DNA of 64,000 nt from a virus (lineage: Duplodnaviria > Caudoviricetes), in the IMG/VR virus record IMGVR_UViG_3300018089_000001, positions 96,001 to 160,000 of that record, one strand, 5' to 3'. A program made the position numbers and the translations under genes. The notes below the pieces were generated by a model. The model had not been told where the DNA came from. It searched no databases and saw only the letters and a program-made list of their open reading frames with translations. How positions within the stretch are numbered: the stretch's first letter is position 1; the number at the start of each line of letters is the position of its first letter. Below are positions 3,316 to 63,989 of this stretch, one piece after another.

Positions 3316-4992
3316 TCAGGCCTTCCTGGGGGCGTAGAGGCCCATCTCGGCCAGCAGGTCGACCCTCTTCCCGTTGGAGAGGGTGAGCCTGTAGGGGTTG
3401 TTGGCGGCCGTACCGAAGACGCCGAGGGCCCGGTACGGGACGTGCTCCGGGTTCTTCGAGGCGCCGGCGATGTGGGTGTTCTTGGTCTGTCGGAGCTGCA
3501 TCGCGCCCAGCATGGCCTTGACCAGGTCGGGCGAGTTGTAGACGCTCCCGTACAGGTTGTCCCTCACCCACACGGCGAAGGCGGCGGCCATGAGGCAGTC
3601 GTCGCGCCGGCCGGAGCGGGCCTCGGGCTTCCCGTTGTGCCAGATGAACGTCTCCATCTCGGCCTTGAACCGGGGGGACCGGACCGTCATGATCCTGGAC
3701 CGGATGAGCTCCTCCAGCTTGTTCAGCATGAAGGCGCGGTTACTTCCCTGCGTGGACACGCCGTGGAGGTAATCGGGCCCCAGCGAGCCCTCGGCGGAGT
3801 TTCCAGTGGTCCCCAGGTGGTCGCCGGCCTTGGCCCCCCGCTTGGTGTAGAAGAGGTTCGGGTAGTTGGCCTCCTTGAGGTGCTCGATGACGGCCAGGCC
3901 GACCGCGTTGTTCTCGATGACGATGAGCGCGGTGTTGTACCTGTACCCAAGGGCGATCAGCTGGGCGGCGTGCTCCTTCGGCTTGAGGAGCGAGTTCAGC
4001 TCAGCGACCTGGTCCATCGTGTCGATGTCCAGGACCTGGTCGCCGGAGCGGTCGAACGATGACCCCGTCGACGAGTCCGCGCCGATGATGTACTTGCGGC
4101 CCTGGACGGCCTCCTGATAGACCTGGAGGCCCTCGTCGAGCCCGTGTTCCGGACTGACAGTCTGGGCCACCCAGGAGATCAGGTCGGCGCCGAAGAACGT
4201 GTCGCCGGAGGCGAGGAACTCGCACTCGTACTCCTGGGCCACCTCACGCGGCGACATCCCCTTGGTCTCCTTGCGGAACCAGGAGGACGTCTGCTTGCCC
4301 GTCTTCGGGTCCACCGAGAGGTCTGAGACGTGCTCGGGGTGCTCCCACCAGTTGACGTAGATGGGGTTGAAGTCGTTGGCCCCGAGGGTGGCGTCGGTGT
4401 ACGTCTTGTGGAAGACGTTCCCGACGCCGAGCGGGGTGGAAAGCATGATGATGCGTCCGCCCGCCGAGACCGTCGGCCTGATGCCGGTCCAGATCTCGTC
4501 GAAGGCCTCGATGTGGGCCGCCTCGTCGACGATCAGGAGGGAGAGGGCCTCGGAGCGGCCGGCGTCCGCGGACTTGGAGATCGACTTGACCGACGACCCG
4601 TTCGCGAGCTCGATCGAGGTCTTGTTGTCCGTCGTGATGTCGGCGATCAGGAGCCAGCGGGGGAGGCTCTTCAGGCCAGTCCTGACGCGGCGGACGACCT
4701 GCTTGGCCGTCTCGGACTTAGTCGCGAGGCAGAGGACCGTCTGGTTCGGATGGAACAGCATCAGCCAGACGACGAACGCGGAGACCAGCTCCGTGAACCC
4801 CATCTGGCGTGGCTTCAGGATGACGTTGAACCGCTTCCTGAGGAAGCAGTCCAGGGTCATGTCCTGGTACTTGAATGTCTTGAAGGGGATCAGCCCGCGA
4901 GTCGGGTGCCTGATCCTGATGTACTCGTTGATGAAGTAGACAGGATCGTGGCCGCAGCGGATGATCTCCTCCTTGACGGAGGACTTCCGCAC
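3316..4992 (-). CDS. terL: Terminase large subunit, T4 gp17-like
   Basis: Walker A KPRQMGFT, Walker B LLIVDEAAHI, MLSTPLG, nuclease domain GADSSTG/ENNAVG/DDCLMA; GTG start at 4992 preferred over the track start. Confidence 0.95.
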   Translation of the reverse strand: MRKSSVKEEIIRCGHDPVYFINEYIRIRHPTRGLIPFKTFKYQDMTLDCFLRKRFNVILKPRQMGFTELVSAFVVWLMLFHPNQTVLCLATKSETAKQVVRRVRTGLKSLPRWLLIADITTDNKTSIELANGSSVKSISKSADAGRSEALSLLIVDEAAHIEAFDEIWTGIRPTVSAGGRIIMLSTPLGVGNVFHKTYTDATLGANDFNPIYVNWWEHPEHVSDLSVDPKTGKQTSSWFRKETKGMSPREVAQEYECEFLASGDTFFGADLISWVAQTVSPEHGLDEGLQVYQEAVQGRKYIIGADSSTGSSFDRSGDQVLDIDTMDQVAELNSLLKPKEHAAQLIALGYRYNTALIVIENNAVGLAVIEHLKEANYPNLFYTKRGAKAGDHLGTTGNSAEGSLGPDYLHGVSTQGSNRAFMLNKLEELIRSRIMTVRSPRFKAEMETFIWHNGKPEARSGRRDDCLMAAAFAVWVRDNLYGSVYNSPDLVKAMLGAMQLRQTKNTHIAGASKNPEHVPYRALGVFGTAANNPYRLTLSNGKRVDLLAEMGLYAPRKA

Positions 4993-55881: not shown

Positions 55882-57207
55882 TCAGATGCTGGCCGTCCTC
55901 AGTCCGATCTTACCACGGCGGGAGGCGTGTTGTTCCATGGCCTTGGTCAGGCCGGCGTCCCAGCCATCGAGCATGGTCTGCATGCCAAAGGTCCTGGTCG
56001 CCCACTCCCGGGCCTCCAGTCCGATCTTCCGGCGGGCCGTGCGGGGGATCCGATAGACCTTCTCCAGGGCGTCGGCGACCTGGTCGTCGTTGACCCGGTC
56101 GTCGTAGATGTACGGGACCTGCTGCGATCCCACGAGATTGCGGGCCGCTGGAAAGACCGGCACGCCCCACCACCTGTGGGTGTTCCTCCGGGACTTCGCG
56201 ACCTTCGTGAGTCTCTCCTGGTCAGAGAAGTCCCGCTGGTCCTGCCACCAGTCACCGACCTGAAACTGCAGGCCGCCGGTCATGTTCACCACGATCGGGG
56301 TACCCGCGTAGAGTGCCTCGAGGGTGCCCAACCCGAAGCCCTCGTTGTTACTGATGTTGATCACGCAGTCAGCACAGTTGTACATCACGTTCAGCTGCGA
56401 GGCGTCCACCCGTCCCTCCGAGAGGAGGAGGAGGTCCTGCACATCGAGCCTCCTCGCGACCGCGTTCACGTCCTGGCCCTCGGGGTCACCCGGGGCCGTG
56501 TGCATGAGCAACGCGACGCGGTCCCTCCCGACTCGCTTGGCAAGCCGAGCGAACGACTCGAGCACGTCGCCCGTCATCTTCCGCCTGGCGTTGCGGTTGT
56601 TCCACATCAGGATGAACTCGCGGGAGGCGAAGGGTCCGTAGTGGCGCCGACGGGCCTCGAGGACCTCGCTCTCCGGGAGGGGCCTGAACAGGTCGGCCGG
56701 CTCCGCGTGGGGGACATAGCTGTACCGCTCCTCGGGATACCCGAGTCCCTGGAGGATCCCGAAGGTCTTCAGGGACAGGGTCATGATGTAGTCCGTGGCC
56801 TCGTAGATGGGCCGGTTGAACTCGGGAGTCGGGTCGTTGTCCCACACGTGCCAATAGACGAGGGGGCAGACCGCCCGCACCTCGTCCTCCATCTCCCAGA
56901 CCCAGTAGAAGAACCTCGGGTCCGTGAAGAGGACCACCGCGTCCGGCTTCAACTCCGCGAGCATCCGCCGAAGCTTGTCCTTGTCCCCGTGCCCGTCGAC
57001 CGGATGGATCACCCAGTTGCCCTCCCCGAACTCGTCAGGGGACACCTGTTGGGGTGTGTAATCCGGGTGTTTGATCGCCCCGCCGAGGCAGGTGAAGCTG
57101 TACTTCCCTGTCTTGAGCAGGCCGCTGATTGTATATTTCGCTTGAATGCCGACGCCTGACGGAACAAGCGGGTGGTCACTGAGCCAGAGTATCTTCTTGC
57201 GGGTCAC
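55882..57207 (-). CDS. Glycosyltransferase GT4
   Basis: SDHP..PSGVG, NRNARRK, NEGFGLGTLEA. Confidence 0.88.
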   Translation of the reverse strand: MTRKKILWLSDHPLVPSGVGIQAKYTISGLLKTGKYSFTCLGGAIKHPDYTPQQVSPDEFGEGNWVIHPVDGHGDKDKLRRMLAELKPDAVVLFTDPRFFYWVWEMEDEVRAVCPLVYWHVWDNDPTPEFNRPIYEATDYIMTLSLKTFGILQGLGYPEERYSYVPHAEPADLFRPLPESEVLEARRRHYGPFASREFILMWNNRNARRKMTGDVLESFARLAKRVGRDRVALLMHTAPGDPEGQDVNAVARRLDVQDLLLLSEGRVDASQLNVMYNCADCVINISNNEGFGLGTLEALYAGTPIVVNMTGGLQFQVGDWWQDQRDFSDQERLTKVAKSRRNTHRWWGVPVFPAARNLVGSQQVPYIYDDRVNDDQVADALEKVYRIPRTARRKIGLEAREWATRTFGMQTMLDGWDAGLTKAMEQHASRRGKIGLRTASI

Positions 57208-57228: not shown

Positions 57229-58113
57229 TTACTCAGACCGCGGGCAGTGCTCGGTTCCGAGGAAGGGGCACGCGGCGCGTCTCTCCTGCTTGGTCCGCCG
57301 GTCTATCCAGACCCTCTCGCACGCCTCGGGGTTCTTCTCGTATGCGTACGAGTGCATGCCCGAGATGGACCTCTGCATGTACTCCAGGGCCTGCTCCGTG
57401 GCCCTCGGTCCCGCGGAGACCTTCCGGACGTCCACCGTCAGCTCGTCCGCCGTCCGGGGGTCCTTCTTGAGGAGGATGAAGGCCACCGAGACGTTCCTCG
57501 GGTCGGCGCCCATCGTCTTACAGAAGAAGTGCTTGTACAGGAGGAGCTGGGAGATCACCTCCATGTCCTGGAACTTCTGGGCCGGCCAGCCCCAGGAGCA
57601 TGTCTTGAAGTCAGCGATGTAGATCACCGTCTTCCGCTTCAGACGCTTCACGAAGGTGATGTCGATGAAGCCCTTGAACATCATCTCCAGCCCGTCGGTG
57701 CGGGAGATCGGCTGCATCAGCCGCATCTCAGACACGAGGCTCCTGATGCCCTGCAGCTCGGGATGCCTGAGGCAGTCCCGATAGAACCGCTCGATGAAGG
57801 GCCGGACCCGATAGGCCTCCTCCACGTCGGAGGAATGGGTCAGGTTCAGCTCGAGGAGTGAGCGGTCGTACATCTCCAGGGCGTGCGCGGTGGCCTTGGC
57901 CACGTCACCCGGGGAATCAGGATCGTACAGGATCTCCAGGCCGGCGTGGACGGCCTTGCCGAACTCTATCTGGAACGATCGGTCGTCTGGGGCCAGCCCG
58001 TAGACCTTCGTCAGGAGCCAGCGCCACTGGCACTCGTTGAAGAGCCTGAGCTCGCTGAAGGAGACGTGCTCCCGGAGCTGTCCGCAGAGCGGCAGGTGGA
58101 CCCTTCTTGACAC
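57229..58113 (-). CDS. PD-(D/E)XK exonuclease (Cas4/AddB-like)
   Basis: SFSEL...C, FGKAVH, GFID, ADFKT, QLLLY, C-terminal Cys cluster; GTG start at 58113. Confidence 0.85.
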   Translation of the reverse strand: MSRRVHLPLCGQLREHVSFSELRLFNECQWRWLLTKVYGLAPDDRSFQIEFGKAVHAGLEILYDPDSPGDVAKATAHALEMYDRSLLELNLTHSSDVEEAYRVRPFIERFYRDCLRHPELQGIRSLVSEMRLMQPISRTDGLEMMFKGFIDITFVKRLKRKTVIYIADFKTCSWGWPAQKFQDMEVISQLLLYKHFFCKTMGADPRNVSVAFILLKKDPRTADELTVDVRKVSAGPRATEQALEYMQRSISGMHSYAYEKNPEACERVWIDRRTKQERRAACPFLGTEHCPRSE

Positions 58114-58262
58114 GGCCTCTCCTCTCCCAGGTACTGGGCGTTCATACCGCAACACTCGTCTCCGCAGAATGTGAGCCCGCAGTGCGGACACTCAGAGGGT
58201 GACGCGCCCTTGAAAATCGCACCGCATCCGTAGACCGGATCGCACCCATACCACCAGGTCAT
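58011..58262 (-). CDS. Small Cys-rich protein
   Basis: MTWWYGCDPVYGCG...CPHCG...CGDECCG; overlaps the nuclease start, so uncertain. Confidence 0.4.
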   Translation of the reverse strand: MTWWYGCDPVYGCGAIFKGASPSECPHCGLTFCGDECCGMNAQYLGEERPCQEGSTCRSADSSGSTSPSASSGSSTSASGAGS

Positions 58263-61820: not shown

Positions 61821-63437
61821 TCACTTCACGAAGCCGGCCATCTCGGCCGCGAACCTCAGGATCCCCTCGCCCCAGCCGCCGAGGACGTACGTCCGCCGGT
61901 AGAACTCGGGCATGATGGTGTCCTGGTAGCCGGCGACCTGCACCAGGAAGACGTTCACGTCGGGGTTGACCTCAGCGCGGTACTTCCTGACCAGCTTGGC
62001 GACGTCGATGTGGCGACCGTCCCAGGCGTAGTCGCGGTACTCACCGGGCTTGATCCCGTACAGGCCGCCGTGGCCCGCCTGCATGTCCGAGAACACGAAG
62101 ACGTTGTCCCACCTGACCTTGCCCGCGATCGCGTCCCGCCAGAACATCCAGATCCCGTTCTCGGTGGACTGCCCGATGTCCCGGGCCAGCGACTCCGCGC
62201 GGGCGAGCTGGTCGAACGCCGAGGCGAGCTTGCGCACCGGAAAGACCTTGAGGTCGTCGCCGAAGACTCCGAGGCTGCCCTCGTCGGACGCCATGGCCGC
62301 GATGATGCCGGTCAGGTTCGCGATCGTGGACACCCGCATGCTTCCCATCGAGGAGGTGGTGGCCCCCTGCGCCGAGCCGCTGTTGTCACACAGCGAGATC
62401 GTCCTGCCCGGGAGACGCGGGACGTTGTCCAGCGAGGTACGCAGGCATCGCTCGATCGCATCGAGCACGGTGGCCGGGGCGATGTCCTGGACGGCCAGGT
62501 ACGCCGAGTAGTATCGGAACGGCAGCTGCTTGCCCGCGGCCGCGCCCTCGACGAGCTTGTCCACGAAGACCGACGGGTCGATCCCCTTCTGGAGGACGTT
62601 CCGCACGTTCCTGAGGAGAGCCATGTGGCCCATCACGTCGATCGCCTTCCGCCAGTTCTCCGGGGTGGAGCCGCCGGTCGAGATGATCGACTCCCAGGTC
62701 TGGTCCGTGGAGACCAGCTTTCCCTTCATCAGGGCGTCGAGCGCCGCGGTCCGCTTGGGATGGACGAGGTTCACGACGTCGAGCGTCTTGACCGTCCGGT
62801 TCTCCATGCGGTACTTGGCGAGCTGATACTCCGTCAACCGCGTCAGCTTGTCCGCCCACGCCTTCTTCAGCGAGTTCGGGATGGGCGCGTCCTTGCCGAA
62901 GCGCCAGACGTGATAGGCCAGCCCCACCGCCGGCTCGTCGGCGCGCTGGATGATGTCCGGCGCGTACTGCCGCACCAGGCCGGTCCCGCGAACCTTGGGG
63001 TGACGCGCGGCCCGCACGAGGATGACCTGCGGGGTCGTCCTGATGTGCTCGGCCTGCCGCAGCCGCACGGCCTCCTTGAGAGTGCGGACCGGATCGTGGT
63101 CGAGGGCCCGGTCGATGGCCGACTCGATCGCCTCGGCCGGCGTCTTCCCACGCCACTCCTGGGGATCGATCGCGTCGAGCGTCTTCCGCAGCTCGACGCG
63201 CTGGGCGTCGGTCAGGAAGGACGGGACCGATGTGTGGTGAGGCACCGGTCGCTTGACACGCCTGTCCTCCGGATCGGCCTCGTAGTACTTCGGCTCACCG
63301 AAGAAGCACGAGCTCGCGGCGATCCTGAGGGCCTTGACGGGATCGTTGATGTCATATGACTCGCCGCCCATCCAGTTCAGGTGAGGCGTCGGCGCCTCGG
63401 GCGCCTGCTTGGTCTCGTGGAACCGGGACATCGTCAC
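61821..63437 (-). CDS. Ro60/Rsr-family TROVE + vWA RNA-binding protein
   Basis: FFGEPKYY, EYQLAKY, TWES, MALLRN, LPFRYYSAY, MIDAS motif CDNSGS and FSDMQ. Confidence 0.92.
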   Translation of the reverse strand: MTMSRFHETKQAPEAPTPHLNWMGGESYDINDPVKALRIAASSCFFGEPKYYEADPEDRRVKRPVPHHTSVPSFLTDAQRVELRKTLDAIDPQEWRGKTPAEAIESAIDRALDHDPVRTLKEAVRLRQAEHIRTTPQVILVRAARHPKVRGTGLVRQYAPDIIQRADEPAVGLAYHVWRFGKDAPIPNSLKKAWADKLTRLTEYQLAKYRMENRTVKTLDVVNLVHPKRTAALDALMKGKLVSTDQTWESIISTGGSTPENWRKAIDVMGHMALLRNVRNVLQKGIDPSVFVDKLVEGAAAGKQLPFRYYSAYLAVQDIAPATVLDAIERCLRTSLDNVPRLPGRTISLCDNSGSAQGATTSSMGSMRVSTIANLTGIIAAMASDEGSLGVFGDDLKVFPVRKLASAFDQLARAESLARDIGQSTENGIWMFWRDAIAGKVRWDNVFVFSDMQAGHGGLYGIKPGEYRDYAWDGRHIDVAKLVRKYRAEVNPDVNVFLVQVAGYQDTIMPEFYRRTYVLGGWGEGILRFAAEMAGFVK

Positions 63438-63466
63438 TGCCTTTCTCTCGGAGGAGTGGAGGAGTT

Positions 63467-63533
63467 GGCGGAGGAAGGGCGGGCGCGGTGTTTTTCACCC
63501 AATAGAAGTAACCGCTCCCAAGTCACTGCCGCC
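63467..63533 (-). ncRNA. Y-like RNA copy A (candidate Ro60 ligand)
   Basis: GGCGG-CAGUGAC-..GGGAGCGG-UUACUUC-loop-CCGCGCCC..-CCUUCCU-CCGCC. Confidence 0.75.
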
Positions 63534-63536
63534 TAG

Positions 63537-63604
63537 CGCATCCGGATCGAATTGAACGACCATCTCCCGATGTTGAGTCAGGGCTCTGCTTGAGCTACGA
63601 ACGC
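63537..63604 (-). tRNA. Atypical tRNA-like element (CAA anticodon, short variable loop, D loop lacks GG)
   Basis: GCGTTCG/CGGATGC, GCTC-AAGCA-GAGC, CCTGA-CTCAACA-TCGGG, GGTCG-TTCAATT-CGATC. Confidence 0.6.
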
Positions 63605-63611
63605 AAGTCGC

Positions 63612-63746
63612 ACGTCGGAGAATACCGCCCACGGTGTGTTAGCGTGCTACCGTTACACCAAGGACCCATGGAGTGGGCCCCCCAGGACTTGAACCTGGAC
63701 CTCTCTCTTACAAGGAGAAGTAACCGCAGGACATCACTGCCGACGT
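63612..63746 (-). ncRNA. YrlA-like Y RNA copy B containing a circularly permuted tRNA
   Basis: ACGUCGG/CCGACGU outer stem and the same CAGUGA/UUACUUC motifs, enclosing anticodon, T, closed acceptor and D arms in permuted order. Confidence 0.85.
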
Positions 63747-63761
63747 ACGGAAAGTGTCGCA

Positions 63762-63845
63762 ATGCGAAGGAAGTCGACGACGGGTTTTTCGTTTTCGGTT
63801 GAAAACCGAATGATGTTGAAGTAACCGTCACCATCACTGTCGCAT
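63762..63845 (-). ncRNA. Y-like RNA copy C
   Basis: AUGCGA-CAGUGAU-GGUGACGG-UUACUUC-...UUCGGUU/AACCGAA hairpin...-CCGUCGUC-GACUUCCU-UCGCAU. Confidence 0.78.
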
Positions 63846-63852
63846 CGCGTCG

Positions 63853-63921
63853 TGCTCCCGGACCGAGTCGAACGGCCGGCCTCCCAGACCAGCTGGGCGC
63901 TCTACACTGAGCTACGGGAGC
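63853..63921 (-). tRNA. Atypical tRNA-Thr-like element with 5-nt anticodon loop
   Basis: GCTCCCG/CGGGAGC, GCTC-AGTGTA-GAGC, CCCAG-CTGGT-CTGGG, GGCCG-TTCGACT-CGGTC. Confidence 0.65.
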
Positions 63922-63925
63922 TAAA

Positions 63926-63989
63926 GGGGAAGGAAGCTCGGAGCGGGGTTGTTCTTGGCATGAAGTAACCGCTTACCGTCACTGTCCCC
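63926..63989 (-). ncRNA. Y-like RNA copy D
   Basis: GGGGA-CAGUGAC-GGUAAGCGG-UUACUUC-loop-CCGCUCCG-AGCUUCCU-UCCCC. Confidence 0.75.

What the first reader, a model, noticed from the sequence alone, without database searches (positions are those of the whole stretch)
63612..63746. Complete circularly permuted tRNA-Thr(UGU) nested inside a Y-like RNA
Seen, 5' to 3' on the minus strand: anticodon arm UUCUC-CUUGUAA-GAGAG, variable AGGU, T arm CCAGG-UUCAAGU-CCUGG, acceptor 3' strand GGGGCCC, linker ACUCCAU, acceptor 5' strand GGGUCCU, UG, D arm GUGU-AACGGUA-GCAC. All four tRNA arms are present, opened between the D and anticodon arms. Established: YrlA RNAs are permuted tRNA mimics (T arm before D arm, closed acceptor) in which the Ro-binding stem takes the place of the anticodon arm. 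Here a canonical 7-nt anticodon loop is also retained. Inference: it could be a decoy for anticodon nucleases, a precursor cut and ligated into a real tRNA, or an intermediate in tRNA-to-Y RNA evolution.
Basis: partly seen in the sequence, partly recalled or inferred. Interest (0 to 1): 0.85.

Follow-up and report, generated by a model that had tools for sequence, protein, structure and literature searches.

The report
Phage Y RNA mimicking a whole tRNA
Beside a phage's Ro60 gene lies a YrlA-type Y RNA whose tRNA-like part includes a hairpin shaped like an anticodon arm; that hairpin sits where published YrlA models draw the 'V' stem-loop, and it looks like a tRNA mimic, not a working tRNA-Thr.

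Summary
The element is a Y RNA of the YrlA type. It has a closing stem, a Ro60 handle, a T arm, a closed 7-bp acceptor stem and a D arm. It lies 175 nt upstream of a TROVE/Ro60 gene, inside a 41-tRNA array of a 185-kb phage.

What I did not find stated in the papers I could read is how anticodon-like it is:
- Of 56 distinct homologous Y RNAs, 23 have a 5-bp (at least 4 paired) stem, a 7-nt loop with U33 and R37, and a 3-7-nt linker to the T arm. Shuffles give 0.8.
- The two loop-proximal pairs covary.
- In 38 aligned loops U33 is 37/38 and A38 is 34/38.

The triplet is not conserved. The phage has its own tRNA-Thr(UGU). Many homologs close the acceptor stem with tetraloops. In this copy, energy models prefer another register.

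Verdict: a new member of a known kind, a full-tRNA mimic and not a decoding tRNA. Other windows of this scan had already reported related phage Ro60/Y-RNA sets.

The parts
63740..63749 (-). P1, 5' strand of the closing stem (core 7 bp 63746-63740)
   Evidence: Pairs with 63609-63618. The equivalent stem covaries in homologs.
63734..63739 (-). CAGUGA, 5' side of the conserved internal loop (presumed Ro60 handle)
   Evidence: The motif CAGTGA..GGTTAC occurs 4 times in the window against 0.01 expected, all just upstream of the Ro60 gene. The same motif is found in IMG/VR, Polyangia and Deinococcus loci.
63725..63730 (-). P2, 5' strand (published 'anticodon-stem' equivalent)
   Evidence: CCUGCG pairs with CGUGGG at 63628-63633. 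In L006 the same position reads GAGACGG/CCGUCUC, a compensatory change seen by inspection.
63720..63725 (-). GGUUAC, containing the conserved YUAY (UUAC)
   Evidence: Nearly invariant in 38 aligned homologs. Chen 2014 says YUAY begins the V region.
63703..63719 (-). Anticodon-arm-like hairpin at the published 'V' position: 5-bp stem and 7-nt loop CUUGUAA
   Evidence: The alternative register is shown.
63699..63702 (-). AGGU, a 4-nt variable-loop-like linker; its U can make a Levitt-type pair with A15 of the D loop
   Evidence: Homologs have (A/U)GGUC with a nearly invariant GG.
63682..63698 (-). T arm (5 bp, loop UUCAAGU)
   Evidence: Cells are 100% paired, with covariation, in 38 homologs.
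63661..63681 (-). Closed acceptor-like stem: 7 bp and a 7-nt loop ACUCCAU
   Evidence: M. smegmatis YrlA, which also has a 7-bp stem, is cut by RNase P.
63644..63660 (-). UG (positions 8-9 equivalent) plus D arm (4 bp, loop AACGGUA)
   Evidence: This region gave the 83% identical blastn match to the Y RNA of Mycobacterium phage ScoobyDoobyDoo.
63628..63643 (-). Linker GCUAACACAC and the P2 3' strand
   Evidence: CUAA after the D arm is shared with homologs.
63609..63627 (-). Pyrimidine-rich 3' side of the internal loop (..UAUUCU) and the P1 3' strand
   Evidence: UUCUC(C) precedes the 3' closing strand in nearly all homologs.
61821..63437 (-). Ro60/TROVE protein gene (538 aa), the presumed protein partner
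   Evidence: Pfam TROVE E 4.9e-12. It is 60-65% identical to Ro60 genes of Polyangia and 36-38% to those of Bacillus phage G and phage SRB7757.
63467..63533 (-). Sister Y module without a tRNA-like domain
   Evidence: Same handle.
63762..63845 (-). Sister Y module without a tRNA-like domain
63926..63989 (-). Sister Y module without a tRNA-like domain

Best explanation
The element is a phage-encoded Y RNA of the YrlA type.

Shown: its ends pair (P1); a conserved internal loop (CAGUGA opposite UAUUCU) and a second stem (P2) lead into a five-way junction. That junction carries an anticodon-arm-like hairpin, a 4-nt variable-like linker, a T arm, a closed 7-bp acceptor stem and a D arm. In other words, it is a complete tRNA body in circularly permuted order. 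The gene lies inside a tRNA array, 175 nt upstream of the phage Ro60 gene on the same strand.

Inferred:
- It is transcribed with the tRNAs and released by tRNA-processing enzymes.
- The P1/internal-loop handle binds the phage Ro60.
- The tRNA-shaped domain recruits a host tRNA-binding factor to Ro60, as Y RNAs tether Ro60 to PNPase in Deinococcus.

The hairpin occupies the position of the published 'V' stem-loop. Across the family it is kept in anticodon-loop form (5 bp, 7 nt, U33, purine 37, A38) while the triplet drifts. So I read it as part of the mimicry of a whole tRNA, recognised by shape and not by codon identity. It is not a decoding tRNA-Thr. Because this copy has a 7-bp acceptor stem with an open 7-nt loop, it may also be cut by RNase P and receive CCA, as M. 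smegmatis YrlA does. That step is inference only.
For: Anatomy at the stated coordinates.

Context:
- The Ro60 gene is next door on the same strand.
- Four handle motifs occur against 0.01 expected.
- A covariance model that left the hairpin region unstructured hits just upstream of Ro60 genes in many phage and bacterial loci.

The hairpin is real:
- RNAalifold predicts it without constraint, with 12/12 sequences paired.
- In 38 homologs chosen without regard to pairing, the two inner pairs show 7 and 22 double changes, the covariation score is 0.50 against 0.13 in shuffles (0/500 reach it), and slid partners give at most 0.10.

It is anticodon-like:
- 23 of 56 distinct homologs (16 with 5 perfect pairs) meet the arm definition, against 0.76 (0.28) in shuffles.
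- Loop columns: U33 37/38, R37 34/38, A38 34/38, no G32. A37 follows U36 in 24/26 loops and G37 follows G36 in 7/8.
- The signature goes with the tRNA-like modules: 15 of 16 hairpins in modules with a T arm, against 6 of 15 in modules without.

Literature:
- L-shaped crystal structure and the dimeric-tRNA origin model (10.1101/312249).
- A phage Ro60 binds phage Y RNA-like RNAs and host PNPase (PMC12135203).
Against: - No expression, end-mapping or binding data exist for this RNA.
- Rfam YrlA (RF02553) does not hit the element at all, and the published GNCGAAN0-1G Ro-binding motif is absent.
- For this copy the nearest-neighbour model prefers a different register of the hairpin, with a UGUA loop that pairs the linker.
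- About 60% of homologs do not meet the arm definition. L006, L007 and the Sorangium copies have other loops or weaker stems.
- The crystal structure of S. Typhimurium YrlA shows the 5'/3' stem, not a hairpin, in the anticodon-stem position. The hairpin may therefore project like a class II variable arm.
- The homologs are related by descent, so the counts are not independent events.
Confidence: 0.8

Rival explanations
1. The hairpin is only the variable-arm-like 'V' stem-loop of the published model. P2 takes the anticodon-stem position on the D stem, the hairpin projects sideways as in class II tRNAs, and its anticodon-like loop is an inherited relic of the tRNA ancestor with no present role.
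For: Chen 2014 models V as the variable arm. The S. Typhimurium YrlA crystal structure places the 5'/3' stem as a kinked anticodon stem. P2 shows a compensatory change between the window and L006. A 4-bp GUUA/UAAC extension next to the D stem is possible and costs nothing in energy. Many homologs have degenerate or short V regions.
Against: A neutral relic should lose U33, R37 and A38 while the triplet drifts, yet these stay at 89-97% across 38 loops with at least 16 different triplets. The linker to the T stem is 4-5 nt, (A/U)GGUC, the length and look of a class I variable loop; class II arms usually leave fewer unpaired bases there (own knowledge). S. Typhimurium YrlA has no V hairpin, so its structure does not settle the stacking.
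Confidence: 0.3
2. The RNA is a decoy or competitive inhibitor for enzymes that read anticodon stem-loops (host anticodon nucleases, or loop-modifying enzymes), held or delivered by Ro60.
For: The loop frame is conserved while the triplet varies. The gene sits in a large phage tRNA array, a feature proposed to counter tRNA-targeting defences (own knowledge). Hughes et al. 2020 raise the possibility that the YrlA tRNA-like domain competitively inhibits an SOS-induced anticodon nuclease (PMC7790460).
Against: There is no direct evidence. No nuclease is known for the presumed host. One RNA copy with one triplet would cover one target at most, and the triplet is not conserved among close relatives. 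S. Typhimurium YrlA, the source of the idea, lacks the hairpin.
Confidence: 0.12
3. In this particular copy the 7-nt loop does not form. The region folds into the longer alternative hairpin (up to 9 pairs, UGUA loop) that abuts the T stem.
For: The MFE, the centroid and the pair probabilities favour it: about 0.9-1.0 for most of its pairs (0.65-0.82 at the ends) against 0.0. The local hairpins score -4.3 against -2.8 kcal/mol.
Against: The alternative uses up the linker U needed for the Levitt-type pair and the A and C of the conserved YUAY. Most homologs fold this region on its own into the 5-bp/7-nt hairpin. Their linker positions 44 and 47 vary without compensation in the invariant ACUUC. 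Energy models ignore tertiary contacts and often misfold real tRNAs; the D arm is misfolded in the same MFE.
Confidence: 0.25
4. It is a precursor that is cut, and possibly ligated, into a working tRNA-Thr(UGU).
For: All arms are present. The permuted sequence is called tRNA-Thr by ARAGORN. It has a 7-bp acceptor stem and A at the discriminator position. M. smegmatis YrlA is cut by RNase P and gains CCA. Wang et al. note the resemblance to permuted pre-tRNAs.
Against: The phage already encodes tRNA-Thr(UGU), Thr(CGU) and Thr(GGU). The triplet is not conserved among homologs. Many homologs close the acceptor stem with UUCG or GNRA tetraloops. No RtcB or Rnl2-type ligase is found in the 91%-complete record. 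[quoted passage not shown] The ARAGORN call survives shuffling of the hairpin in 28% of trials.
Confidence: 0.03

Closest known systems
YrlA (Y RNA-like A) of bacteria and phages: Chen et al. 2014, PMC4201824; structure in Wang et al. 2018, 10.1101/312249; Rfam RF02553
   Same: Encoded just upstream of Ro60 on the same strand. The 5' and 3' ends pair. The T arm comes before the D arm, with a closed acceptor-like stem between them. YUAY is followed by a stem-loop upstream of T. The conserved tRNA tertiary-contact bases are present (U8, A14, G18 G19, the T-loop, an A15:U48-type Levitt pair).
   Different: The GNCGAAN0-1G motif is replaced by CAGUGA opposite UUCU(C). RF02553 gives no hit. The V stem-loop has exact anticodon-arm dimensions and loop frame, whereas the literature calls it a variable arm and states that S. 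Typhimurium YrlA lacks the anticodon loop.
M. smegmatis YrlA and mycobacteriophage YrlA (ET08 in Chen 2014; ScoobyDoobyDoo here)
   Same: 7-bp acceptor-like stem with an open loop. The T-arm-to-D-arm core is 83% identical to ScoobyDoobyDoo over 62 nt. ScoobyDoobyDoo also has a 4-bp stem and 7-nt loop (AUGCGGA) before the T arm.
   Different: ScoobyDoobyDoo keeps the CGAA-type handle and encodes ACCA in the acceptor loop. The window has ACUCCAU. [quoted passage not shown]
Y RNAs beside Ro60 in Caulobacter phage CcrColossus, Gordonia phage Neville and Bacillus phage G
   Same: Matched by my model R1 upstream of their Ro60 genes. Two CcrColossus copies have arms of the same 5-bp/7-nt form, with loops CUGUUAA and AUCUGGA followed by AGGUC.
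   Different: Different hosts. Ro60 is only 25-36% identical.
Circularly permuted tRNA genes of Cyanidioschyzon merolae and some archaea (cited in 10.1101/312249)
   Same: The 3' half precedes the 5' half, the acceptor stem is initially closed, and the ends pair.
   Different: Those are opened in the anticodon loop or elsewhere and are processed by a splicing endonuclease and a ligase into decoding tRNAs. Here the break lies between the D stem and the hairpin. I saw no 3-4-3 bulge-helix-bulge by eye, and the triplet is not conserved.
Class II tRNA long variable arm (Leu, Ser, bacterial Tyr)
   Same: A hairpin between the anticodon-stem position and the T stem, which is the published reading of V.
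   Different: Class II arms usually have 3-5-nt loops and fewer unpaired bases before the T stem (own knowledge). Here the loop is 7 nt with U33 and R37, and the linker is 4-5 nt.

Membership tests
YrlA-type Y RNA | Encoded within about 4 kb of a Ro60/TROVE gene, on the same strand | tested here: met
   The element ends at 63612. The TROVE ORF is at 63437-61821 on the same strand.
YrlA-type Y RNA | Conserved T-like and D-like stem-loops, T before D, with tRNA-invariant bases | tested here: met
   R1 scores 93 bits on this element, which is one of its six seed sequences, and hits upstream of many other Ro60 genes. The T helix is 100% paired with covariation.
YrlA-type Y RNA | Closed acceptor-like stem-loop between T and D | tested here: met
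   7 bp and a 7-nt loop. The stem covaries in 12 homologs.
YrlA-type Y RNA | YUAY followed by a 'V' stem-loop upstream of T | tested here: met
   UUAC at 63723-63720 is followed directly by the hairpin.
YrlA-type Y RNA | Paired 5' and 3' ends forming the Ro60-binding stem | tested here: met
   P1 has 7-10 bp. Seven of seven flank pairs are found in most homologs, with different sequences. Binding itself was not tested.
YrlA-type Y RNA | GNCGAAN0-1G motif near the 5' end | tested here: not met
   The 5' region reads GGCAGUGAUG and the element contains no CGAA. ScoobyDoobyDoo does have GCCGAACG.
YrlA-type Y RNA | Score at or above the Rfam RF02553 gathering threshold (69 bits) | tested here: not met
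   No RF02553 match to the element at E up to 10. Homologs reach only 31-44 bits.
YrlA-type Y RNA | Physical association with Ro60/Rsr | not testable with these tools
   Needs co-immunoprecipitation or EMSA.
Decoding tRNA-Thr(UGU) | Cloverleaf in standard order with free acceptor ends | tested here: not met
   ARAGORN and the Rfam tRNA model find nothing at 63612-63746 in the native order.
Decoding tRNA-Thr(UGU) | Anticodon conserved among orthologs | tested here: not met
   At least 16 different triplets occur at the equivalent position.
Decoding tRNA-Thr(UGU) | Fills a gap in the genome's tRNA set | tested here: not met
   A standard tRNA-Thr(tgt) lies at G000 163782-163855, with Thr(cgt) and Thr(ggt) as well. 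The permuted element is not close to any of them.
Processed circularly permuted tRNA gene | Bulge-helix-bulge junction, plus a splicing endonuclease and a ligase to rejoin the halves | tested here: inconclusive
   By eye I saw no 3-4-3 bulge-helix-bulge around the GUUA/UAAC helix. No RtcB or Rnl2-type ligase is in the phage record. Host enzymes are unknown.

The most novel reading that the evidence does not exclude
YrlA-type Y RNAs of this handle family are complete permuted tRNAs, and their 'V' arm is a true anticodon stem-loop kept under selection for authentic loop architecture (U33, R37, A38, coupling between positions 36 and 37). It sits in the anticodon-arm position of the L shape, with the Ro60 handle leaving from the D/anticodon junction. 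Ro60 would then present a full tRNA look-alike as bait, decoy or substrate for enzymes that read anticodon loops, such as anticodon nucleases or position-37 modification enzymes. In the phage that could protect or monitor its own tRNA supply.
Probability: 0.15. Interest if true: 0.8.

Novelty: new member of a known kind. Interest (0 to 1): 0.5.

Why it matters
[quoted passage not shown] If the mimic includes a faithful anticodon arm, the candidate list widens from elbow-binding factors to proteins that read the anticodon loop. The observation also gives concrete mutants to test: the loop frame against the triplet. It fits the published idea that YrlA arose from tandem tRNAs, because the stretch from the anticodon arm of one copy to the D arm of the next is a permuted tRNA. 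It also cautions that Rfam RF02553 and the CGAA motif miss a widespread handle variant found in phages, Polyangia and Deinococcus.

Tried and rejected
- Rfam scans found no Y RNA or YrlA match: gathering threshold on the whole window, E up to 10 on 6 kb and on 201 nt, and RF02553 on the whole record.
- blastn against 50,697 phage records gave a single 62-nt hit.
- ARAGORN on permuted sequences was dropped as a test after the shuffle control still gave 0-77% calls, 28% for the window copy.
- My first descriptor scan missed true cases because of a greedy regular expression; I rewrote it.
- A local CAGUGA..UUACU hairpin was considered and rejected, because the bases between the two motifs pair with the 3' part instead.
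- A recent origin from the phage's own tRNA-Thr was rejected. The best global matches are tRNA-Lys, and they are weak.
- 'Just a tRNA-tRNA junction' was rejected. No tRNA halves flank the element, and ARAGORN finds none overlapping it.
- AGUGA before the ro start codon in other loci is mostly an extended Shine-Dalgarno sequence, not a handle.
- Supplements of Chen 2014 and the reviews PMC10870794 and PMC6047535 are not held. I therefore cannot exclude that the anticodon-like look of V is already mentioned there.
- No protein fold or complex prediction was run.

Full report
**Observation.** In order it contains:
- a 5-bp stem with a 7-nt loop CUUGUAA (63719-63703);
- AGGU;
- a T arm (63698-63682);
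- a 7-bp acceptor-like stem closed by ACUCCAU (63681-63661);
- UG;
- a D arm (63658-63644).

The usual tRNA contact bases are in place: U8, A14, G18 G19, UUC in the T loop, and an A15/U48-type pair. ARAGORN and Rfam see no tRNA there in the native order.

**Context.** The window is part of a 185,486-bp IMG/VR virus record with 66% G+C. The element lies 175 nt upstream of a 538-aa TROVE/Ro60 gene on the same strand. That protein is 60-65% identical to Ro60 of Polyangia such as Sorangium, so the host is probably a myxobacterium.

Four modules share one handle: a closing stem, CAGUGA, an inner stem ending in GG, UUACUUC, a payload, a UUC(C)U strand, and the closing stem again. That is 4 matches against 0.01 expected. 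The modules are interleaved with tRNA-Pro and tRNA-Leu calls at the end of a 41-tRNA array. Only the module under study carries T, acceptor and D arms.

**What is already published.**
- Chen et al. [quoted passage not shown] They equate V with the tRNA variable arm, and a conserved YUAY begins it.
- M. smegmatis YrlA, which has a 7-bp acceptor stem, is cut by RNase P and gains CCA.
- The crystal structure of S. Typhimurium YrlA, which has no V hairpin, puts the 5'/3' stem in the anticodon-stem position. The authors state that this YrlA lacks the anticodon loop. They also discuss an origin from dimeric tRNAs and a likeness to permuted pre-tRNAs.

The hairpin as such is not new.

**Homologs.** I built a covariance model from six relatives and deliberately left the hairpin region unstructured. 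It hits just upstream of Ro60 genes in many IMG/VR phages, Polyangia, Deinococcus, Bacillota and Chloroflexota, and in CcrColossus, Gordonia phage Neville and Bacillus phage G. A pattern scan that specified only the handle and the T loop added 33 viral loci.

Among 56 distinct Y RNAs selected in this way:
- 23 have an arm with at least 4 of 5 pairs, a 7-nt loop with U33 and R37, and 3-7 nt before the T stem;
- 16 of those have 5 perfect pairs;
- shuffles give 0.76 and 0.28 respectively.

In an alignment of 38 sequences chosen by length only, the two loop-proximal pairs take four pair types each (7 and 22 double changes). The covariation score is 0.50 against 0.13 in shuffles (0/500 reach it), and slid controls give at most 0.10. 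RNAalifold, run without constraints on 12 full-length RNAs, returns P1, this hairpin (12/12 paired), and the T, acceptor and D helices.

**The loop.** Over the 38 loops:
- U33 is 37/38, position 37 is a purine in 34/38, A38 is 34/38, and G never occurs at position 32.
- A37 follows U36 in 24 of 26 loops, and G37 follows G36 in 7 of 8.
- The triplet itself varies widely (GUU, UUU, UGU, GCU, GAU, GUG, CAG and others).
- The following linker is (A/U)GGUC with a nearly invariant GG, like a class I variable loop.

The signature belongs to the tRNA-like modules. It occurs in 15 of 16 hairpins that start at UUC in modules with a T arm, against 6 of 15 in modules without one.

**Evidence that limits the claim.**
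- For this copy, ViennaRNA prefers another register made possible by the GAGAGAG run. It is a longer stem with a UGUA loop that pairs the linker, with pair probabilities of about 0.9-1.0 for most pairs (0.65-0.82 at the ends) against 0.0. Energy models ignore tertiary contacts and misfold the D arm in the same run, so this is a caveat, not a refutation.
- About 60% of homologs do not meet the arm definition.
- The sequences are related by descent, so the counts overstate independent support.
- ARAGORN's tRNA-Thr call on the permuted sequence is weak, because 28% of versions with a shuffled hairpin are also called.
- Which helix stacks on the D stem, P2 or the hairpin, cannot be settled with these tools.

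**Why it is not a working tRNA-Thr.**
- The phage encodes tRNA-Thr(UGU), Thr(CGU) and Thr(GGU), and the element is not close to them.
- The triplet is not conserved.
- Many homologs seal the acceptor stem with UUCG or GNRA tetraloops.
- No RtcB or Rnl2-type ligase is found in the record.

**Mechanism I commit to (confidence 0.8).** This is a Y RNA partner of the phage Ro60. It is made from the tRNA operon. Its handle binds Ro60, and its tRNA-shaped domain, hairpin included, mimics a whole tRNA to engage a tRNA-binding factor.
- Shown: the anatomy, the genomic context, and conservation with covariation.
- Inferred by analogy: Ro60 binding, tethering of an effector, and possible RNase P/CCA processing (PMC4201824; PMC12135203).

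A decoy role against anticodon nucleases is possible. It has a precedent as a suggestion for YrlA in Hughes et al. 2020, but it is untested.

**Membership.** The element meets the architectural and contextual features of YrlA. It fails two tests: it lacks the GNCGAAN0-1G motif and has no RF02553 hit, and its relatives reach only 31-44 bits. I therefore file it as a YrlA-type RNA with a variant handle. The same handle and arm occur in CcrColossus, a phage reported to encode Y RNA-like RNAs (PMC12135203).

**Novelty.** It is a new member of a known kind. The part I could not find in the papers available to me is the family-wide anticodon-loop signature of the V arm. Earlier notes of this scan had already reported phage Ro60 genes with sets of handle-bearing RNAs, and un-permuted tRNA-in-handle variants, on other DNA. 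I saw one such variant myself in L085.

Noticed in passing
window 63425-63450 (-): A fifth copy of the handle's 5' half (GGCAGUGA..CGGUUCC) overlaps the Ro60 start codon (GTG 63437 or ATG 63431). It could let Ro60 bind its own mRNA. In other loci, AGUGA before the start looks mostly like an extended Shine-Dalgarno sequence.
   Followed up: partly
window 63536-63604 and 63852-63921 (-): The tRNA-Leu(CAA) and tRNA-Pro(UGG) calls that flank the Y RNAs are only 69-70 nt long. The 'Leu' has no long variable arm, has a pyrimidine at position 37, and scores 37.9 bits. They may be processing spacers and not decoding tRNAs.
   Followed up: no
G000 154865-165554 (window 58865 onward, running past its end): 41 tRNA calls lie in one minus-strand array, including three tRNA-Thr. 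The Y RNAs and the Ro60 gene sit inside it.
   Followed up: partly
L085 about 4042-4110 (IMGVR_UViG_3300035312_000476): The same handle is followed directly by a D arm and an anticodon arm with loop CUUGUAA. This is an un-permuted tRNA-in-handle variant, as earlier notes of this scan described on other DNA.
   Followed up: no
L028-L041 about 2760-2910 (Sorangium loci): Tandem Y modules in which the 3' closing strand of one module is complementary to the 5' closing strand of the next. The tRNA-like part is reduced to a hairpin plus a T arm, without acceptor and D arms.
   Followed up: no
window 63467-63533, 63762-63845, 63926-63989 (-): The short sister modules often form a 3-5-bp stem starting at the conserved UUC with a 7-nt loop: 15 of 48 across loci against 3.2 in shuffles. 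Only 6 carry the U33/R37 frame.
   Followed up: partly
window 55882-57207 (-) and 57229-58191 (-): A GT4-type glycosyltransferase, which also matches the 'GT4-conflict' family, and a PD-(D/E)XK nuclease lie downstream of the tRNA array.
   Followed up: no
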